DNA from: Hormiphora californensis
Lineage: Eukaryota > Animalia > Ctenophora
Direction: 5' to 3'
DNA: 11,108 nucleotides
Assembly: GCA_020137815.1 (NCBI GenBank)
Contig: WFME01000034.1
Coordinates: 1 to 11,108 of the forward strand
Part shown: positions 1 to 11,108 of the stretch, piece by piece
Position numbering within the stretch: the stretch's first letter is position 1
Layout of the letters: each line of letters opens with the position of its first letter
The notes under the pieces: model-generated
Databases searched by the model: none
What the model was told of the DNA's origin: nothing
The model's input: only the letters and a program-made list of their open reading frames with translations
Translations under genes and position numbers: made by a program

Positions 1-2230
1 TGACAAACTACCAGTGCTTTTTTCCCCTTCAACCCAACCCTAAGGGTTTGGAGAAACCCCTTTTTAAAAAAAACCCCGGCATTTGTGCATGCCCCTTAAA
101 AACATTAGGAATGCCCTTTAAAAAATACCTTTTATGCAATCCCTTAAAAACCCCATGCTATTATGAACCCTGTGACAAAACCCCCCCAGTGGAAAACCCC
201 CCCCAAAAAACATTAAGTGGTTTGGGGGGGCACCTCCGGGCTTAAAGCCCAAAACCCCCCAAAAACCCCCATTAGTGCGATCCCCTTTGAAAACCCCCAA
301 CTTTTGTGGCCGGGAGTTTTAAAATTTAAAAATTTTTAGGCAACCCCTTAAAACTTAGGTTTTGGGCCGGCAAAAAAAAAACCCTCTATTCCGGTTAAAA
401 AATTTCCCCCCCTTTTTAAAACCCCTTTCCCCGGGTAATAGTTTCCCCTTGAAAAATTTTTTTTTAAAAAAAAGGGAAAAAACCAAATTATAAAAGGTTT
501 TTTTTAAAAAAAAGGCTTTATGGATCCCCTGGACAAATTGTGTTTTTTTTCAAACCCCCGGAAAAACTTTAAACCGGGATTTCAGTCCCTTAAAAACAAA
601 CCCCTTTAAAAAGGGGGAAAATTACCGTGTTTGTGGGGAAAAAACCCCCCAAGTGTATTAGTGGTCCCCCCAAAAAAAAAAGTGCGGGGCCCCCTGTTAG
701 AAAACGCCCGGGGGGAACAGACCCCTTTAAAAACCAATAAGGGATTATGCAACCCCGTGCCCAAAATTTAAAGTCCCTTATTTTAAAATTTTTTGGGGGG
801 GGGGGGCCCGGGAAAAAAAAAACTAGGGGGGGAAAAAAAAATTTTTTTGGAAGGGTTTTTAAGAAAAAAATTCCACCCAAAAATTTTTTGGGGGGGTTTT
901 GAAAACTTCCAGTTTTGGGAGATGCCCCTGTAACAACACTTCCGTGCATTTTTCCCCTTCCCCCAAAAATTTTTCCCCATTCAAACCCCTTTTCCCCAAA
1001 AAACTTACCATGCTTTAGGCAAACCCGGAAAAAAACCCTTTTTTGCTTTTTTTGGGAAAAAACCCCCCAAAGGTTTTAGGGGCCCCCCCCGAAAACACTC
1101 CATGATTTAAACCCCCTTTAAAAAAACCCTTAAAAGTCCCCTTGGCCCCCCTGTAACAAACCCCCAGGCCTTTGTTTGGGTTTGGCCCCTTAAAACACTT
1201 ACCCGGCATTAAGTGCAGATGCCCCTGTACGCCATCAACACTTTACCATGGCTATTAGTTCGTGATTCGCCCCTGTAAAAACATCTTAGCCAGTGGCTAC
1301 TTAGATACAGATTGCCCCTGTGAACCAACGACCCTTACCAGTGCTATTATCAGTGCAGATGTAGCCTCCTCGAGTCACCTGGGTAGACTACACTTTACCT
1401 AGTGCTAATTGTTGCAGATTAGCCTATTTTCCTATAGAACACCACTTCAAATTTGCTGATGCATTTTGCAGCGAACGTACTGTCTGGTCTGTCCCTTTAT
1501 CAGACATAAACTTACCCAGTTGCTATTAGTGCAAGATCGCCCCATGTAACAACACTTACCATGTGCTATTATAGCAGATCCCCTGTGAGCCAGACACTTA
1601 CCTACCATTGCTCTTATTTCGAGTGCCCATGCACTGTTCTCTCTCCCCTCGTATAGGTCATACACTTAGCCATTGCATCGCTTAGTGCAGATCTGCCCCC
1701 TGTAGAACCTAAATCACTTAACCACTATGGCCTATTTATAGTGCATTCTTTTCATGCCCTGGTAGAACAAACACTACGCAGGTTCTTGCCTTATTAGTGC
1801 AGATGCCCCCTGTAGCACACACTTACCAGATGCTATTAGTGCAGATGCCCCTGTAGACAACACTTACCAGTGCTATTAGTGCAGATGCCCCTGTAACAAC
1901 ACTACCAGTGCTATTAGTGCAGATGCCCCTGTAGACAACACTTACCAGTGCTATTAGTGCAGATGCCCCTGTAGACAAACCACTTACCAGTGTCTATAGT
2001 GCAGATTCCCCTTTAGCAACACTTACCATGCTATTTAGTGCAGATGCCCTCTGTAACCAATCACTGTACAGCGTGCACTTGTGCATAGTCCCCCGTAATA
2101 CAACCTTACCAGTGCTTTATTGCACGATGCCCCTGTAACAACACACTTCCCAGTGCTATTAGTGCAGAGGCCCTGTAACCAACCTTACCAGTGCTATTAG
2201 TGCGATGCCACCCTGTATCTGTAATCCCAA
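1..2230. repeat. Degraded continuation of the same 40-bp minisatellite
   Basis: Clear units at 1790-1990, indel-rich units at 1200-1790 and 1990-2230. In 1-1200 only remnants survive (e.g. ACTACCAGTGCT at 7-18, GATGCCCCTGTAACAACACTT at 921-941) amid inflated homopolymers. Confidence 0.85.
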
Positions 2231-2450
2231 CACTTATCCGCCAATCGGCCTCTTCGTCTCGTGCGCCCTCGAGGATCAGTGCCTGCTTCTATTGAGCCCA
2301 TGCGCGGATCTCCCTCCGTCTCAGTCCGCTCCTCGTTGCATACGCGGCTGAAGGCGACCTAATAAGCAGAGCGAGGCTGTGCTCTCAACGAGTACGTCCA
2401 ATCCCCTTCCCACTTCTGCCTAGCTGCCTGATTAAGGATCGAAAAACGTG

Positions 2451-5057
2451 AACTCTTACCGTGGCACTATAGTGGCAGATGCCCCTGTAGACAACACTTA
2501 CCAGTGCTATTAGTGCAGATGCCCCTGTAGACAACACTTACCAGTGCTATTAGTGCAGATGCCCCTGTAGACAACACTTACCAGTGCTATTAGTGCAGAT
2601 GCCCCTGTAGACAACACTTACCAGTGCTATTAGTGCAGATGCCCCTGTAGACAACACTTACCAGTGCTATTAGTGCAGATGCCCCTGTAGACAACACTTA
2701 CCAGTGCTATTAGTGCAGATGCCCCTGTAGACAACACTTACCAGTGCTATTAGTGCAGATGCCCCTGTAGACAACACTTACCAGTGCTATTAGTGCAGAT
2801 GCCCCTGTAGACAACACTTACCAGTGCTATTAGTGCAGATGCCCCTGTAGACAACACTTACCAGTGCTATTAGTGCAGATGCCCCTGTAGACAACACTTA
2901 CCAGTGCTATTAGTGCAGATGCCCCTGTAGACAACACTTACCAGTGCTATTAGTGCAGATGCCCCTGTAGACAACACTTACCAGTGCTATTAGTGCAGAT
3001 ACCCCTGTAGTTAACACTTACCAGTGCTATTAGTGCAGATGCCCCTGTAGACAACACTTACCAGTGCTATTAGTGCAGATGCCCCTGTAGACAACACTTA
3101 CCAGTGCTATTAGTGCAGATGCCCCTGTAGACAACACTTACCAGTGCTATTAGTGCAGATGCCCCTGTAGACAACACTTACCAGTGCTATTAGTGCAGAT
3201 GCCCCTGTAGACAACACTTACCAGTGCTATTAGTGCAGATGCCCCTGTAGACAACACTTACCAGTGCTATTAGTGCAGATGCCCCTGTAGACAACACTTA
3301 CCAGTGCTATTAGTGCAGATGCCCCTGTAGACAACACTTACCAGTGCTATTAGTGCAGATGCCCCTGTAGACAACACTTACCAGTGCTATTAGTGCAGAT
3401 GCCCCTGTAGACAACACTTACCAGTGCTATTAGTGCAGATGCCCCTGTAGACAACACTTACCAGTGCTATTAGTGCAGATGCCCCTGTAGACAACACTTA
3501 CCAGTGCTATTAGTGCAGATGCCCCTGTAGACAACACTTACCAGTGCTATTAGTGCAGATGCCCCTGTAGACAACACTTACCAGTGCTATTAGTGCAGAT
3601 GCCCCTGTAGACAACACTTACCAGTGCTATTAGTGCAGATGCCCCTGTAGACAACACTTACCAGTGCTATTAGTGCAGATGCCCCTGTAGACAACACTTA
3701 CCAGTGCTATTAGTGCAGATGCCCCTGTAGACAACACTTACCAGTGCTATTAGTGCAGATGCCCCTGTAGACAACACTTACCAGTGCTATTAGTGCAGAT
3801 GCCCCTGTAGACAACACTTACCAGTGCTATTAGTGCAGATGCCCCTGTAGACAACACTTACCAGTGCTATTAGTGCAGATGCCCCTGTAGACAACACTTA
3901 CCAGTGCTATTAGTGCAGATGCCCCTGTAGACAACACTTACCAGTGCTATTAGTGCAGATGCCCCTGTAGACAACACTTACCAGTGCTATTAGTGCAGAT
4001 GCCCCTGTAGACAACACTTACCAGTGCTATTAGTGCAGATGCCCCTGTAGACAACACTTACCAGTGCTATTAGTGCAGATGCCCCTGTAGACAACACTTA
4101 CCAGTGCTATTAGTGCAGATGCCCCTGTAGACAACACTTACCAGTGCTATTAGTGCAGATGCCCCTGTAGACAACACTTACCAGTGCTATTAGTGCAGAT
4201 GCCCCTGTAGACAACACTTACCAGTGCTATTAGTGCAGATGCCCCTGTAGACAACACTTACCAGTGCTATTAGTGCAGATGCCCCTGTAGACAACACTTA
4301 CCAGTGCTATTAGTGCAGATGCCCCTGTAGACAACACTTACCAGTGCTATTAGTGCAGATGCCCCTGTAGACAACACTTACCAGTGCTATTAGTGCAGAT
4401 GCCCCTGTAGACAACACTTACCAGTGCTATTAGTGCAGATGCCCCTGTAGACAACACTTACCAGTGCTATTAGTGCAGATGCCCCTGTAGACAACACTTA
4501 CCAGTGCTATTAGTGCAGATGCCCCTGTAGACAACACTTACCAGTGCTATTAGTGCAGATGCCCCTGTAGACAACACTTACCAGTGCTATTAGTGCAGAT
4601 GCCCCTGTAGACAACACTTACCAGTGCTATTAGTGCAGATGCCCCTGTAGACAACACTTACCAGTGCTATTAGTGCAGATGCCCCTGTAAACAACACTTA
4701 CCAGTGCTATTAGTGCAGATGCCCCTGTAGACAACACTTACCAGTGCTATTAGTGCAGATGCCCCTGTAGACAACACTTACCAGTGCTATTAGTGCAGAT
4801 GCCCCTGTAGACAACACTTACCAGTGCTATTAGTGCAGATGCCCCTGTAGACAACACTTACCAGTGCTATTAGTGCAGATGCCCCTGTAGACAACACTTA
4901 CCAGTGCTATTAGTGCAGATGCCCCTGTAGACAACACTTACCAGTGCTATTAGTACAGATACCCCTGTAGACAACACTTACCAGTGCTATTAGTGCAGAT
5001 GCCCCTGTAGACAACACTTACCAGTGCTATTAGTGCAGATGCCCCTGTAAACAACAC
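2451..5057. repeat. 40-bp minisatellite, near-perfect part (~65 copies), unit CCAGTGCTATTAGTGCAGATGCCCCTGTAGACAACACTTA
   Basis: Exact 40-bp period from 2481 to 5040 (64 units) with rare variants at 3001, 3011-3012, 4690, 4955, 4961 and 5050. There are no spacers. The last unit overlaps the 3' end of exon K2. Confidence 0.99.
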
Positions 5058-5144
5058 GGTGATTTCTTCCTGTTAAGCAACTCTCAGTCCTCAAGTGACA
5101 CTCGTTGTAGTACGTTTTACCGTCGCTACACACACAGCGTGTTT
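5022..5144 (-). CDS. Exon K2: remainder of the Kazal domain completing the follistatin domain begun in F2
   Basis: TACTTTCAG| acceptor, KHAVC[G]SDGKTYYNECHLRTESCLTGRNHRVVYRGICTNST, then G|GTAAGT donor. One G must be restored near 5129 (123 nt seen, 124 expected). Joined to F2 it gives C-NSD-C-PVEKHAV-C, the canonical Kazal C-x3-C-x7-C spacing. Confidence 0.88.
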
Positions 5145-5178
5145 CTGAAAGTAGTATAGTGAGAGGAGACCCCTTTTA

Positions 5179-5201
5179 GCTGCCACACACAGCGTGTTTC
5201 T
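5179..5201 (-). repeat. Intronic duplicate of the first 21 nt of exon K2 with its own AG acceptor
   Basis: TTTCCTCTAG|AAACACGCTGTGTGTGGCAGC TAA encodes KHAVCGS-stop, 55 bp upstream of the true exon start. Confidence 0.85.
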
Positions 5202-5508
5202 AGAGGAAATGACGCGGTTTTTGGGTCACAGCGTGGATCGCAAAGCACTTATATGGAGCTGAAGACGTCTGACATAGATCAGTCGAAAGCTCCTGTTCTT
5301 AATTGAATATTAGTACTGCAAAATCGTTGTTTCTCTTATATGGAGTCACATGGCCGTTCATTGTGGTTGATTAGGATCGCAAATGAAGCAATTTTGAAGT
5401 GTGTTGCTTTAAAGTTTTTCCCTTTGGTTACCGTTAATAAGTAAATAACTAATTCTTTATCTAATTAGTAAACAACTAATTAGTCAACAAATTATCAGCT
5501 AATAATAC

Positions 5509-5610
5509 CTCGACAGGGCAGTCGCTGTTACAGACACACGTTGGTCCTCTCCTCCTCGTGTTTCTACACACTTGTCCCCAGGGGCATGTTATCATACTAC
5601 ACTTCGTCCT
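5509..5610 (-). CDS. Exon F2: follistatin N-terminal (FOLN, EGF-like) module plus the first two Kazal cysteines
   Basis: (CT)nCTACAG| acceptor, then a 102-nt open frame RTKCSMITCPWGQVCRNTRRRGPTCVCNSDCPVE, then a phase-0 |GTATTA donor. The Cys spacing C-x4-C-x5-C-x9-C-V-C-x3-C is typical of follistatin domains. Confidence 0.88.
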
Positions 5611-5614
5611 CTGT

Positions 5615-5675
<61 letters not shown>
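5615..5675. repeat. (GA)n microsatellite; reads (CT)n on the minus strand and forms the polypyrimidine tract of exon F2
   Basis: About 30 GA units immediately adjacent to the CTACAG acceptor at 5616-5611. Confidence 0.95.
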
Positions 5676-5679
<4 letters not shown>

Positions 5680-5777
5680 CGAGATATAATAGTCAGAGAG
5701 AGCTCATAAGAGATCTCTCTCTCTCTAAGCTGCTAGCATCTTTCTCTATATCTAGCTGATATACTCTCTCTTCCTCC

Positions 5778-5935
5778 CCGTAGACAGGGCCCCATAATGT
5801 TTGAAGACAACATTGCTTTTTGTCTCACATGAGGATCGTCTCAGATGGCAGACAGTCTGATACGTCCTGCCATCAGATCCACAAACTTGTCGAGTTGCGT
5901 GATCCTCGCAACTTTCTAAACATCGTTCCCTCTCT
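5778..5935 (-). CDS. Exon K1: complete Kazal domain
   Basis: Acceptor ATTTCAG|A (phase 2, completing CC+A = Pro from the K0 donor), then ERERCLESCEDHATRQVCGSDGRTYQTVCHLRRSSCETKSNVVFKHYG. Removing one base from the G-run at 5790-5793 gives PCL and supplies the sixth Cys. The donor is not legible, so the end coordinate is approximate. Lies inside ORF 5752..6045. Confidence 0.85.
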
Positions 5936-6732
5936 CTGAAATATTGGGTCAACTTTAGTTTTTCAGGACTTCCTCCTCTGAAAATTGGGGGAGTCACTGT
6001 GATTTCTCCAGGGTTTTCAAATCTCTCTGAAATATGGGGAGTCAACTTTATTTTTCAGGGTTTCCATCTCTCTGAAAAATTGGGGGAGTCAATTTAGTTT
6101 TCAGGGTTTCCCTCTCTCTGATCTCTCGCAATATTGGGGGAGGTCAACTTAGTTTGTCACGGGTTCCCTCTCTCTGACTTTGGGGAGTCAACTTTAGTTC
6201 TTCAGGTTTTCCCTCTCTCTAAATATTGGGGAGTCAACTTTAGTTGTCAGGTTTCCACTCTCTGAGATATTGGGGGGGAGTCACTTTTAGTTTTTCACAG
6301 GGTTTTTCCCTCTCTCGTGAGATATTGGGGGGTCAACTTTAGTTTTCAAGGGTTTCCATCTATCTGAGATATTGGGGGGGGGTCAACTTTTAGTTTCGGT
6401 TTTCCCCTCTCTCGGAGATATTGGGGAGTCAACTTTAGTTTTCAGGGTTTCCCTCTCTCTGAGATATTGGGGAGTCAACTTTAGTTTTCAGGGTTTCCCT
6501 CTCTCTGAGATATTGGGGAGTCAACTTTAGTTTTCAGGGTTTCCATCTCTCTGAAATATTGGGGGAGTCAACTTTAGTTTTCAGGGTTTCCCTCTCTCTG
6601 AGATATTGGGGGAGTCAACTTTAGTTTTCAGGGTTTCCCTCTCTCTGAAATATTGGGGGAGTCAACTTTAGTTTTCAGGGTTTCCCTCTCCCTCTGAAAT
6701 ATTGGGGGAGTCAACTTTAGTTTCCAGGGTTT
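5926..6732. repeat. 46-47-bp minisatellite, 17 copies, unit TTTCCCTCTCTCTGAGATATTGGGGAGTCAACTTTAGTTTTCAGGG
   Basis: Units counted by eye; cleanest at 6421-6730 (period 46-47) and noisier towards 5970-6420. The first unit overlaps the start of exon K1. Confidence 0.97.
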
Positions 6733-6931
6733 ACTTCTGATAGCTCCACTAAATAATATGCATGATACCACTTCTGCATATAAACGATCTGGGAGGAGGC
6801 TGATTTAATCCCAGTGCATGGAACAAGCTGGTGCAATATACCAGTTCCGATAGAAAGAATGAGGACCCTGTACAGGTTTGTGGGGAGTATAACAGTACAG
6901 TACACAAACTGCACAGTAAAGAATGCTGTAG

Positions 6932-8420
6932 TAGTCCAGGAAAAGTTCTAAAAAAATAGGCCAAATTTCGGCATTTCTGCATAAAAGCAAATTCCGGTTG
7001 ATTTTGGTCAATTCGAGTATGCTGATCACGACTATAAACTTTTAGTGAACTTTTTCGATGGGGAAAGTGGCTTAATTGGCCTTAATTGGCCTTAATTGTA
7101 AATGTGTCTAAAATATATTCTGCCTAGCTCAAAAAATCAGGAAGAATTCACTGATTATCGAAAAAAATATTTTCAGATTTTATTTGTGTCGAAAATAGGC
7201 GGAATTGGCCTAATTGGGCATAATTGGGTGTAATTACTAGAATTCAAAATGTATTCTGCATAGCTCAAAAAAATCGGGATAAATTCACTGATTATCGGAA
7301 AAATATTTTCAGATTTTATTTGTGTCGAAAATAGGCGGAATTTGCCTAATTGGGCATAATTGGGCGTAATTACTAGAATTTAAAGTTTATCAAAAATGAG
7401 TTTTATACAGCTTAAAAAATCGAGAAAAATAAGCTGATTATCAGAAAAATACTATTGGAATTCATTTTTGTCTCAATTAGACGGTAGAGCTAATTAAAAA
7501 CCAATTAACTCACCAAATTGATGATGCGTGACATAAATGAGCCTCAGGAATGAGAAATTCAACTTAAAAAGCTATTTCTTCACTAATTGTCCCCAAGGGT
7601 CTCTCCTAACACCACAGAAAATCCTAACATCCGGTGCGAGGACAACAGTTCATTTCCGGGGTATTGTACAAGCACATCATGTGCTGTGAGCGAGAAACTG
7701 AAAATCGTAAAAATCGGAGTTTTGGACCCGGAAAAAGATCGCACCGGATGTTAGGATTTTCTGTGGTGTTAGGAGAGACCCTTGGGGACACATTAGTGAA
7801 GAAATTAGCTTTTTAAGTTGAATTTCTCATTCCTGAGGCTCATTTATGTCGCACATCATCAATTTGGTGAGTTAATTGGTTTTTAATTAGCTCTACCGTC
7901 TAATTGAGACAAAAATGAATTCCAGTAGTATTTTTCTGATAATCAGCTTATTTTTCTCGATTTTTTAAGCTGTATAAAACTCATTTTTGATAAACTTTAA
8001 ATTCTAGTAATTACGCCCAATTATGCCCAATTAGGCAAATTCCGCCTATTTTCGACACAAATAAATCTGAAAATATTTTTTCCGATAATCATGAAGTTTT
8101 TTCCCGATTTTTTGAGCTATGCAGAAACTTTTGAATTCTATTTAATTACACCCAATTATGCCCAATTAGGAAATTTTTCCCCTATTTTCGACACAAAAAA
8201 ATCTGAAAATTTTTCCGATAATCATGATTTTTTCCTGATTTTTTGAGCAGGCAAATATATTTTGACCATTTACAATTAAGCCATTGGCCAATGCCCTTTC
8301 CCCTCGAAAAAGTTCCAAAAAGTTTTTATCGTGACCCAAATCTCGTTTTGCCCAAAAATCCCCCGGGAAATTTTGCTTTTATGCAAAATGCCGATTTTAA
8401 AAATGACGGGGCCGGGACTA
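6932..8420. mobile_element. Foldback/MITE-like non-autonomous element: ~0.7-kb inverted arms around a 99-bp spacer
   Basis: The left arm (~6964-7639) is the reverse complement of the right arm (7739-~8398), e.g. ATCCTAACATCCGGTGCGA versus TCGCACCGGATGTTAGGAT. The spacer is 7640-7738. The outer ends TAGTCCAGG (6932) and CCGGGACTA (8420) are also inverted. No transposase ORF. The inverted repeat is directly visible; the transposon call is inference. Confidence 0.65.
7110..7380. repeat. Two ~135-bp direct subrepeats inside the left arm (a more diverged third follows to ~7495; mirrored in the right arm)
   Basis: TATTCTGC(C/A)TAGCTCAAAAAA...TTCAGATTTTATTTGTGTCGAAAATAGGCGGAATT...TAATTACTAGAATT occurs at ~7117-7244 and ~7252-7380. 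Confidence 0.9.
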
Positions 8421-8426
8421 AAAAAC

Positions 8427-8461
8427 CTCACGCACAGGGCTGGGGCAGGCCCCTTAACTGC
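8427..8461 (-). repeat. Intronic duplicate of the 3' end and donor of exon K0
   Basis: GCAGTTAAGGGGCCTGCCCCAGCCCTGTGC|GTGAG versus exon GCAGTTCACAGGGGAGCCTGCCCCAGCCCTGTACC|GTGAG. Confidence 0.85.
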
Positions 8462-8462
8462 G

Positions 8463-8525
8463 GGTCCCTTATTGGCTGATAACCAGTCACGTGACCTAAA
8501 TAACGAGTTCTGATTGGTTGTTTAC
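8463..8525 (-). repeat. Short interspersed repeat with CCAAT-GTCACGTGAC-CCAAT core
   Basis: Minus strand reads GTAAACAACCAATCAGAACTCGTTATTTAGGTCACGTGACTGGTTATCAGCCAATAAGGGACC (pseudo-translation KQPIRTRYLGHVTGYQPIRD). I recall this motif as a high-copy repeat in Pleurobrachia bachei gene models; this is from memory and was not searched. Confidence 0.6.
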
Positions 8526-8529
8526 TCAC

Positions 8530-8655
8530 GGTACAGGGCTGGGGCAGGCTCCCCTGTGAACTGCAGTCACCGTGTTAGGGGCATTACAATTCCTCATTTT
8601 CAACAAACACATGTTAGTGTACGTCTCACCATTGTTCCCACACACAAAACTGTTC
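8530..8655 (-). CDS. Exon K0 of a follistatin/Kazal multi-domain protein (C-terminal part of a Kazal domain)
   Basis: Manual minus-strand translation gives NSFVCGNNGETYTNMCLLKMRNCNAPNTVTAVHRGACPSPV, matching the Kazal pattern VCGxxGxTYxNxCxLxxxxC...HxGxC. It ends CC|GTGAGT (phase-2 donor at 8529). The 5' boundary is uncertain: 8655 by analogy with the copy at 9717, or 8675 after TTCCTCAG if there is a 1-base error. Confidence 0.85.
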
Positions 8656-8681
8656 CGGAGGGAGGATTGTTACATCTGAGG

Positions 8682-8733
8682 AAGAGAAGAGAGAGGAGAG
8701 AAGGGAGAGAGAGAGAGAGAGGGGAGAGAGAGA
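8682..8733. repeat. GA-rich microsatellite; a pyrimidine tract on the minus strand upstream of exon K0
   Basis: Imperfect (GA)n run next to the minus-strand TTCCTCAG ending at 8676. Confidence 0.8.
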
Positions 8734-9670
8734 GTTTTTTCCATAACAAAGAGAGAGAAGAGCCCTACAAAATAAACGCTCGAAACGAGCGTTCGACGAC
8801 CGATATCGTTGGTTTTAAACCGGTCGTTTTCACGGTCTTTTTGGGAGACGTCTGAAACGATGGACGGTTTTAAACAGCGAAATGCCGTCAGCCCGGGGGG
8901 CTCAAAGCGCGTTTTTTTTCCCATGGATCTTCCTGCAGGTTTCTATCCGACTTTCTTTTGCGTTTTTAAAAAAGGGCCTAACAATCACAAGCAAATTCCT
9001 ATTCTTTACTCTTCTTTTACTTTGCTTTTTTTCACTTTGCTTGTCCTCCAAAAAAAAAGGGGCTTTTTCCCCTCCTCCCTCGGCTCTACTTTTCCCAAAA
9101 TACCCCCCTCCCCGTTTCCCTAAATTTTGGGGGGGCCTATCCTACTAAATTACCGCTTTCTTGGTAAATTTTCCCCCCCCCCCCCGCCCCCCCCACCCCC
9201 CCCCCTCCCCCCCCCACCTCCCCCCAATATAGCGACTTTTGCAAAAACACCACACTAAGAGACAATCCTTGTGTTTGGTGCACTAATCCTTTCGCGTTAA
9301 AAACTAACAAATGTTCTTATCTTCCCATCCCAAGTATTCAGAAACATTTTTTCAGTCCATTGGTGCTACATTCATCACCCCTTTTTTGTGTTTTAAACAT
9401 TTTTTTTTTTCTTCATCTCCATGGGAAAACATACCCTCCCTCATCATCAAAACATCACGGTACCAACCCTCACAAATTCTGTAAGTTTTTACCTGTCCGT
9501 TTGTCGTTCACAGATTGTTAAAGTTTTATTGTGAATGTAATTTACTATTCAAAACACGGTAAACATCGGGATTCCAGACCCAAACTCAAGACATTCTCAA
9601 AGGCAAAACGTTACCTAGTTCCAGACCAATTAGAGAGAGAGATTGTTACTATAACTAGAGAGAGAGAGAG

Positions 9671-9720
9671 ACATGTTAGTATAAGTCTCACCATTGTTCC
9701 CACACACAAAACTGTTCCTG
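9671..9720 (-). pseudogene. Truncated duplicate of the 5' part of exon K0 with an intact acceptor
   Basis: TTTCTACAG|GAACAGTTTTGTGTGTGGGAACAATGGTGAGACTTATACTAACATGT (NSFVCGNNGETYTNM) matches 8655-8609 at 45/47 nt, then breaks into (CT)n. Confidence 0.8.
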
Positions 9721-11108
9721 TAGAAATTACATTTATTGGAAGTGGGGTAATTAATTGGTAGGTAATTACCAGTTAATTAGAGGTTTAATTACCAGTTAAT
9801 TGCGGATTTATCTATACCTTGTTGAACAAGACTTCGGGCATTGGGAAACAATGTTTTTTTGTTTTTCTAAACCATTTCCTGTTCCCTGCAAAACAACACA
9901 CTTTCCTGCGTGGTGGGAGGGAACCCATAAAAAAAAAGGGAAATTTGGGACTATAACTAAAGAGATTGGGACTATACCCCAAAGGGGGGGGTTTTTGGGG
10001 GGGAAAAAACTAATTAGAAAAATATACCCAATTGGTAAAAATAGTAATAAACAAATTCATCAGTTTTTGCGAAACTGGATCATCCAGATTCCAGAAGTGT
10101 ATAGAAATCTGACTCAGTTGCATGTCACAACACATCCTCGCAGTAAATAGTTTTAAATGTTATTATATTAATTTATTTAAATTAAAGAAAGATGAAACCT
10201 TTCTTTCTCAAACTTTTGAAACACTAAGTCTTGCCTAGCTAGACTCTGTTTAGTGCGCCCCGCATAACAAACTTACTCAATAAGGCGTAGTCTCTTCCAA
10301 ATGAGTTTCCCCGAACCACGGATGATGTTCTGGCTAGGGCTGGTATAAGATGGTCGCAGTAAACGCAAAAAATCATTTTTAAAAATTTAAATAATTTAAT
10401 TTTGAAAAACTTTATAAAAAAATAAAGAAAAATTGGGGACTATAACAGAGAGAATTGGACTATACTAAAAGGGGAGGGGGAGGTATCCACCTAGTTGGAA
10501 AAGTTTTTACCAATAAACGCGGTAATCTTTGAGGGAAAAAGGGTTTTTAGAAATTGGGGCTAATTTTTTCACCTAATTTTATCGATTAAAGTATATTTAG
10601 TTTGGGGGAGGGTGGAGGGTGGAGGGGAGGGTGGAGGGGGTTTTTTTTTTTTTTTCTTCGCGAAATAAAGAGAGAGGAGATTACCATAATAAGAGAGATA
10701 ATCATAGCGGCTATTATCAAAGGAGCTTTATATAAATAAAAAAATTTGGGTTTTTGGGCTAATATTTTTATAGTTTTAAATTTTTGTTAAGATCTATAAA
10801 TTAGTATTGCTTCTTTTTAGGCGGTTTAGAAATTTCATATTTATGTTTGGGCTTGTTTTACCCCTGATCCTTTACTGAAATCAAGGGGCGACAAGCAAAA
10901 TTGGGCCGTCCTCTGTTCCCTTGGGGAACCAAACACCCCAAACCCCCACCCTCCAAAACCCCACACCAGGGGCACCCCTGTTCCGCATTACAATGGAGTT
11001 ATTCAAGAAAAGTTTTTAAAGATTTTTTCATTCCAAACGATTTTTTTTCGAACTTTTCAACAAAAAATTTTTGTGGGGGTTTTTCTTCCCCGGGGAGAGA
11101 GAGAGAGA

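What the first reader, a model, noticed from the sequence alone, without database searches (positions are those of the whole stretch)
2451..9728. Systematic duplication and amplification of exon edges with their splice sites: five cases in one gene
Seen in sequence: five of the six ends of the three Kazal exons have copies in the adjacent intron. These are the K2 donor (40-bp array), K2 acceptor (5179-5201), K1 acceptor (46-bp array), K0 donor (8427-8461) and K0 start (9671-9720). Each copy is 10-47 nt of coding sequence plus a GT or AG signal. Both minisatellites in the window are anchored on a splice junction, although junctions are a tiny fraction of the DNA. Inference: either a mutational process is focused on exon-intron boundaries (intron-end turnover, junction-templated repair, unequal exchange between alleles with diverged introns), or selection filters duplications, because those straddling a junction leave one intact exon. 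Tandem duplication across splice sites is an established model for intron gain and sliding, but I do not know of this density in one locus.
Basis: partly seen in the sequence, partly recalled or inferred. Interest (0 to 1): 0.85.

Follow-up and report, generated by a model that had tools for sequence, protein, structure and literature searches.

The report
Polymorphic "mirage" repeats at exon edges
Five of the eight exon edges of an animal follistatin/Kazal-domain gene have been copied, splice signal included, into the neighbouring intron, and the copies differ between samples; this kind of repeat is already known from lancelets as "mirages" and is likely spliced out harmlessly.

Summary
All five copies are in the window. 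Four were laid on contigs of three DNA runs and each is supported in at least one run, so they are not mere assembly artefacts. All 17 exon variants seen in other runs are synonymous, so the gene is live. The copies are polymorphic. The K2 acceptor unit (55 bp) is skipped by both haplotype contigs of run X1 but multi-copy in X4 and X5; X1 shows extra copies at only 1 of 4 tested edges, X5 at 4 of 4. This is the known "mirage" class (lancelet Adh3, globins, PGBD5; human F7), and this scan has noted it before (27 findings, at least 8 genomes). Short introns plus purging of exon-internal duplications explain much of the density; enrichment is unresolved (post hoc P 0.13 to 0.0001). One odd detail: alleles with and without the K2 duplication must use two unrelated acceptors. 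No RNA covered the exons.

The parts
8530..8655 (-). Exon K0, Kazal domain; donor GT at 8529-8528; start at 8655 inferred
   Evidence: Pfam Kazal_2 E 3.9e-10; 8 of 8 variant alleles synonymous; cover in 3 of 3 DNA runs ends at 8656
9671..9719 (-). Copy of the first 47 nt of K0 behind an AG, followed by a (TC)n run; truncated, 1.06 kb upstream of K0
   Evidence: 46 of 48 identical to 8609-8656; summed depth over 8626-8655 is 1.0x in X1, 3.2-5.4x in X4, 2.0-6.4x in X5
8427..8466 (-). Copy of the K0 3' end with GT donor, period about 99 nt (noisy in the window)
   Evidence: Alignment, period; depth at 8556 is 3.8x in X5 and falls to 1.0x at 8565 where the homology ends; 1.0x in X1 and X4; window 8396-8455 itself uncovered in all runs
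8463..8526 (.). 64-bp piece of a very high-copy interspersed element; forms the intronic part of the K0 donor unit
   Evidence: Summed contig depth 20,000-36,000x the exon depth in 3 of 3 DNA runs, many different flanks
6968..8394 (.). 1.43-kb foldback (inverted-repeat) insert in the K0-K1 intron, likely a transposon; outer right arm noisy
5926..6732 (-). 46-bp minisatellite: 36 nt intron end + AG + about 10 nt of K1 start, 17 copies
   Evidence: TRF; alignment to junction; not tested on reads
5781..5935 (-). Exon K1, Kazal domain; acceptor AG 5937-5936; no GT donor readable in the window (likely sequence error, untested)
   Evidence: Pfam Kazal_2 E 3.7e-10; PDB hits agrin, rhodniin, follistatin
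5509..5610 (-).
   Evidence: AG/GT flanks; best PDB matches follistatin and FSTL1, weak E 0.12-0.49, cysteines aligned; 4 of 4 variants synonymous; no Pfam hit above cut-off
5145..5201 (-). K2 acceptor duplication: distal acceptor A (AG 5201-5200) + 21 nt exon copy (5199-5179) + 34 nt intron end B (5178-5145, AG 5146-5145); 55-bp unit
   Evidence: Joint 5124->5179 in 2 X1 contigs, depth 52 (unit absent); loose ends of tandem type and depth about 30-38x in X4, 6-30x in X5; A and B unrelated (1402 of 2000 shuffles score as well)
5022..5144 (-). Exon K2, Kazal domain; donor GT 5021-5020; window lacks one base at 5127/5128
   Evidence: Pfam Kazal_2 E 1.8e-7; 5 of 5 variants synonymous
2470..5057 (-). 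40-bp minisatellite: last 34-36 nt of K2 + GTAA(GT); 64.7 clean copies, degraded traces down to position 1
   Evidence: TRF; unit census; 9 of 13 200-nt bins in 1-2600 beat all 100 shuffles; 'goes back 40' joint in 3 of 3 DNA runs, summed depth ratios 117, 247, 972 (rough, not copy numbers)

Best explanation
These are 'mirage'-type repeats: short duplications across exon-intron junctions of a live follistatin/Kazal-domain gene, varying in presence and number between samples, that likely arise by ordinary slippage or unequal exchange and are likely tolerated because one intact exon remains and the extra splice sites would be skipped. Shown: the anatomy, the polymorphism, purifying selection on three of the four exons, and stops or frameshifts if a copied site were used. 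Inferred: (1) a 40-100-nt duplication arises at random in a gene whose introns are only 170-310 nt once arrays and inserts are removed; (2) duplications wholly inside an exon are purged, those straddling a junction survive, so a quarter to a third of survivors are junction-type; (3) a two-copy seed expands or collapses by unequal crossing-over; (4) exon definition picks the exon-adjacent site and nonsense-mediated decay removes the rest.
For: Unit anatomy. Read support for 4 of 4 laid cases in at least one run; extra copies at 1 of 4 edges in X1, 3 of 4 in X4, 4 of 4 in X5. 17 of 17 exon variants synonymous, 16 at third positions. Read-through gives stops at the K2 donor, K2 distal acceptor and K0 donor, and a 46-nt frameshift at K1. 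Compact-gene null: 37% of surviving duplications span a junction, P(>=5) = 0.03 of 6, 0.07 of 7, 0.13 of 8. Short matches at unit edges (GT at the 40-bp unit, AA(C) at the 46-bp unit). Same class with haplotype length variation and undisturbed splicing in lancelets (PMC3087553 section 16; PMC3902484 passages); silent downstream donors in human F7 (PMC1557585 abstract).
Against: With longer ancestral introns the null is rejected (P 0.004-0.02 with 500-nt flanks, 0.0001-0.0006 with the foldback kept). Only one intron-only duplication lies in the read-supported part. Three of four tested copies appear to segregate within the species, which implies a high birth rate at junctions. The 34-nt intronic part of the K2 acceptor unit is unrelated to the intron end it sits beside, which simple slippage does not produce. 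Splicing was not observed: RNA run X19 laid 0 contigs and X7 held only the interspersed element. Depth ratios are summed contig depths that the tool says are not copy numbers, and 'not seen' for K0 copies in X1/X4 could be filter loss.
Confidence: 0.65

Rival explanations
1. Duplications are generated preferentially at exon edges: in a species whose intron alleles are highly diverged, recombination or repair starts in the conserved exon, loses homology at the edge and switches template, joining one allele's junction to another's; the seed then amplifies.
For: K2 acceptor: X1 has A|exon, the window has A|21 nt exon|B|exon, with A and B unrelated, as expected from an out-of-register join of two alleles with different intron ends. 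The F-K2 intron differs between haplotypes by many substitutions and indels, including an 86-nt insert. 5 junction copies against 1 intron-only copy in clean sequence.
Against: No allele with B alone was seen in 3 runs. The 40- and 46-bp units look like plain tandem duplications. Single locus chosen post hoc; compact null not clearly rejected.
Confidence: 0.25
2. The copies are kept because they tune expression (unproductive splicing to decay) or yield alternative isoforms or new introns.
For: Every unit keeps GT or AG; F7 pseudo-donors are functional when the real one is lost (PMC1557585 abstract); mirage-based intron gain has been proposed.
Against: Presence and number vary between samples; units of 40, 46 and 55 nt break the frame or carry stops; lancelet RT-PCR found normal splicing.
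Confidence: 0.05
3. The copies are assembly or long-read artefacts of a noisy window.
Against: Tandem joints, tandem-type loose ends and depth steps that coincide with the copy boundaries in runs from 3 samples and 2 studies. Copy numbers in the window may be wrong, but the copies exist.
Confidence: 0.05

Closest known systems
Lancelet 'mirage' minisatellites (Adh3, globins BflGb6/BflGb9, troponin C, PGBD5). Read: PMC3087553 section 16 and passages; PMC3902484 passages. The original Adh3 paper (Canestro et al. 2002) was not held and is known here only through those citations.
   Same: Unit spans an exon-intron boundary and keeps AG/GT; both 5' and 3' boundaries affected; unit sizes 10-160 bp; copy number differs between haplotypes; more than one per gene (two in PGBD5).
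   Different: Unnamed species; five edges in four exons; arrays of up to 65 or more near-identical units; apparent presence/absence variation; one unit whose intronic part is unrelated to the neighbouring intron end, and one that includes a piece of a high-copy element. Splicing and somatic instability untested here.
Human F7 intron-7 37-bp VNTR (Borensztajn et al. 2006, PMC1557585; abstract and outline seen)
   Same: First unit spans the exon-intron boundary, followed by identical donor pseudo-sites; the most upstream donor is the real one, as for the 40-bp array here.
   Different: Single donor array; its scanning rule does not cover the three acceptor cases here, where the real site is the most downstream.
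Intron gain by tandem genomic duplication (potato RdRp case, PMC4974935, search listing only; model summarised in PMC3087553)
   Same: Tandem duplication of sequence carrying splice signals.
   Different: Here existing junctions are copied and existing introns lengthened; no new intron or shifted junction in the coding sequence is seen.

Membership tests
Mirage minisatellites | Repeat unit spans an exon-intron boundary | tested here: met
   Direct for K2 donor, K2 acceptor, K1 acceptor, K0 donor; for K0 start it rests on an inferred acceptor at 8656/8657
Mirage minisatellites | Copies carry AG or GT splice signals | tested here: met
   All five in the window sequence
Mirage minisatellites | Head-to-tail, minisatellite-like arrangement | tested here: met
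   40-bp and 46-bp arrays; 55-bp unit tandem by loose ends in X4 and X5; period 99 at K0 donor. K0 start arrangement unresolved (copy 1.06 kb away across noisy DNA)
Mirage minisatellites | Length variation between haplotypes or individuals | tested here: met
   K2 acceptor unit skipped by both X1 haplotype contigs, multi-copy in X4 and X5; depth ratios differ at the other three laid edges
Mirage minisatellites | Normal splicing undisturbed | tested here: inconclusive
   No RNA contig covered an exon (0 of 2 RNA runs laid); indirect support from 17 of 17 synonymous variants
Mirage minisatellites | Somatic instability (reported for Adh3) | not testable with these tools
   Only contigs were available; no raw reads or tissue series
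Intron gain/sliding by tandem duplication | A new intron or shifted junction in the mRNA created from the duplicate | tested here: not met
   Exons stay contiguous in contigs and copied sites lead to stops or frameshifts; mRNA itself not seen
Junction-targeted mutational process | Genome-wide excess of duplications at junctions over a length- and selection-matched null | not testable with these tools
   No genome held; single-locus null inconclusive, P 0.13 to 0.0001

The most novel reading that the evidence does not exclude
Splice junctions in this species turn over within the population: out-of-register exchange between alleles with unrelated intron ends installs a new acceptor 55 nt downstream of one that other alleles use, so two different 3' splice sites for the same exon segregate, and the same edge-focused process seeds mirages at most junctions faster than chance.
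Probability: 0.22. Interest if true: 0.65.

Novelty: new member of a known kind. Interest (0 to 1): 0.33.

Why it matters
As it stands it is a dense, population-variable example of a described but little-studied repeat class. The origin of mirages is called unclear in PMC3087553, and none of my 8 paper searches (listings only, open-access library) returned a genome-wide enrichment test. This locus adds a natural experiment: alleles with no, one or many upstream decoy acceptors for one exon, where the decoy is the only acceptor in another allele. That tests how 3' splice sites are chosen and whether intron ends are replaced by allele exchange. It also warns that such loci are collapsed or corrupted in assemblies.

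Tried and rejected
No whole genome is held, so no genome-wide test. Two homologue searches with single exons among proteins of about 75-2000 aa found nothing (weak evidence; longer proteins such as agrin are outside the range). The representative-protein search never ran and the Atlas gave no result, so gene orthology and taxon stay open. RNA runs X19 and X7 did not cover the exons; this says nothing on expression. Uncovered stretches 8396-8455 and 8657-8682 are not taken as proof of absence. Homology between acceptor ends A and B was rejected; no longer source for B was found in the window (longest other match 9-10 nt). A first-glance K0 start at the AG at 8677-8676 was rejected because no run supports 8657-8682 and the frame breaks. 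Exon F has no Pfam hit above cut-off. Three paper look-ups failed (Adh3 mirage paper; Zhuo et al. 2007). PMC12783039 and PMC10078293 (passages) held nothing on junction-spanning units. No supplements were read; the BflGb6 alignments in PMC3087553's supplement could bear on unit anatomy. No earlier scan notes exist for this genome or the 64-bp element.
Full report
What the window is. The window is eukaryotic intron-exon DNA with a gene on the minus strand. Pfam confirms three Kazal exons (Kazal_2 E 1.8e-7, 3.7e-10, 3.9e-10), and K1's best solved relatives are agrin, rhodniin and follistatin. F and K2 together likely make one follistatin domain. The orthologue and species are unknown (run labels are coded). 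The gene is live: all 17 variant alleles that other runs show in K0, F and K2 are synonymous, 16 of them at third positions. Sequence quality is uneven: 39-62% of bases in 1-1200 lie in homopolymer runs against about 10% in the clean array.

The observation. All five copies are present. K2 donor: 64.7 copies of a 40-bp unit, 60 of 65 blocks identical, made of the exon end plus only 4-6 intron bases; traces continue towards position 1 (9 of 13 bins beat all 100 shuffles). K1 acceptor: 17 copies of 46 bp, about 10 exon and 36 intron bases. K2 acceptor: 21 exon bases and an AG repeated 55 nt upstream. K0 donor: about 36 exon bases plus GT at period 99. K0 start: 46 of 48 identical, 1.06 kb upstream. 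Of all 8 exon ends, 5 have a copy beyond every one of 200 shuffles and 3 do not (two donor windows were 2-4 nt off the junction). So the count is 5 of 8. The K0 acceptor is inferred: the window has no AG at 8656/8657, and cover in all three DNA runs ends at 8656, exactly where the copy has its AG.

Independent data. Two stretches were laid on contigs of three DNA runs from three samples and two studies. X1 is the best holder and may not be independent of the window. The 40-bp array shows a 'goes back 40' joint in 3 of 3 runs, with summed depth 117, 247 and 972 times the exon depth (rough, the tool says these are not copy numbers). The K2 acceptor unit is skipped by two X1 contigs whose depths add up to the diploid level (joint 5124->5179, depth 52), so both X1 haplotypes lack it. 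In X4 and X5 the loose ends are of tandem type and depth is about 30-38x and 6-30x. The K0 donor copy shows as 3.8x depth in X5, dropping to 1.0x at 8565 where the window's copy ends; it is not seen in X1 or X4. The K0 start shows 3.2-5.4x in X4, 2.0-6.4x in X5 and 1.0x in X1. 'Not seen' may be filter loss; only the K2 acceptor absence rests on a positive joint. Neither RNA run covered an exon.

Is the density more than chance? With arrays and the foldback removed, the three inner introns are about 304, 170 and 309 nt. If duplications fall at random and exon-internal ones are purged, 37% of survivors span a junction; P(at least 5) is 0.03 of 6, 0.07 of 7 and 0.13 of 8 events. One intron-only duplication lies in clean sequence and three or so more in noisy sequence, so n is about 6-9. 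Longer assumed introns give P 0.004-0.02 or 0.0001-0.0006. The outer introns' original lengths are unknown and the locus was picked for this pattern, so the test is inconclusive with a lean towards some excess.

How it most likely works. Shown: use of a copied site gives a stop within the first unit (K2 donor), after seven codons (K2 distal acceptor) or at once (K0 donor), or a 46-nt frameshift (K1). Inferred: junction-straddling duplications leave one intact exon, exon definition picks the adjacent site, decay removes errors, and two-copy seeds expand and collapse by unequal exchange (general knowledge of minisatellites; also proposed). I put this at 0.65. One case does not fit plain slippage. 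In X1 the K2 exon follows acceptor A directly. In the window A is followed by 21 exon bases, a stop, and a 34-nt intron end B with its own AG. A and B are unrelated (1402 of 2000 shuffles align as well). Alleles with the unit must therefore skip the acceptor that X1 alleles would use. An out-of-register join of two alleles with different intron ends would give this, and haplotypes here do differ strongly in introns, but no B-only allele was seen. I put edge-focused mutation at 0.25.

What is known. Tandem repeats spanning exon-intron boundaries are named 'mirages' in lancelets: Adh3 (units 10-72 bp), globins BflGb6 and BflGb9, with both boundaries affected, haplotype length differences, normal splicing by RT-PCR, an unclear origin and a proposed route to intron gain (PMC3087553 section 16). 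PGBD5 carries two and troponin C is also cited (PMC3902484 passages). The Adh3 paper itself was not held; I recalled the term before finding it. Human F7 has a 37-bp donor VNTR with silent pseudo-sites (PMC1557585 abstract). Four of six mirage features were met, splicing was inconclusive and somatic instability untestable. Earlier notes of this scan hold 27 such findings in at least 8 genomes (unchecked), one reporting no excess over chance in a wider sample. None of 8 paper searches returned a genome-wide enrichment test in its listing.

Verdict. Real, somewhat overstated, and a new member of a known kind. The added value is the within-species variation and the two-acceptor polymorphism at K2, which make splice-site choice and the origin of mirages testable. 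Interest 0.33.

Noticed in passing
window 5248-5345: A multi-copy interspersed element (about 5257-5337) flanked by 11-nt direct repeats is skipped in one X1 haplotype and in X5 (joints 5249->5336, 5251->5337): a presence/absence insertion in the F-K2 intron.
   Followed up: partly
window 8463-8526: 64-bp piece of an extremely abundant short element (20,000-36,000x exon depth) starts 2-3 nt after the K0 donor GT; loose ends on both sides look like inverted termini. Family unknown; also matched in RNA run X7.
   Followed up: partly
window 6968-8394: 1.43-kb foldback element with a 99-nt loop and internal 136-bp repeats; arm identity decays from 0.99 to 0.80 outward with errors on the right arm, as nanopore reads of hairpins are recalled to do (recalled, not checked).
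   Followed up: partly
window 1-2450: Corrupted continuation of the 40-bp array, homopolymer-inflated below 1200; the true array is probably at least 5 kb. 2201-2400 has no unit signal and may be a short unrelated insert or noise.
   Followed up: partly
window 5615-5684 and 8683-8734: (AG)n microsatellites lie just upstream of exon F and about 30 nt upstream of K0, forming (TC)n pyrimidine tracts on the coding strand; another follows the K0 start copy at 9657-9671.
   Followed up: no
   Followed up: no
window 9929-9991 and 10418-10478: A 63-nt pair at 81% identity resembling 9631-9666; possibly remnants of another minisatellite in the noisy upstream intron.
   Followed up: no
window 5056: One X4 haplotype and X5 carry in the K2 exon the same base as the array units, while the window and X1 differ; a synonymous change that could reflect conversion between exon and array.
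   Followed up: partly
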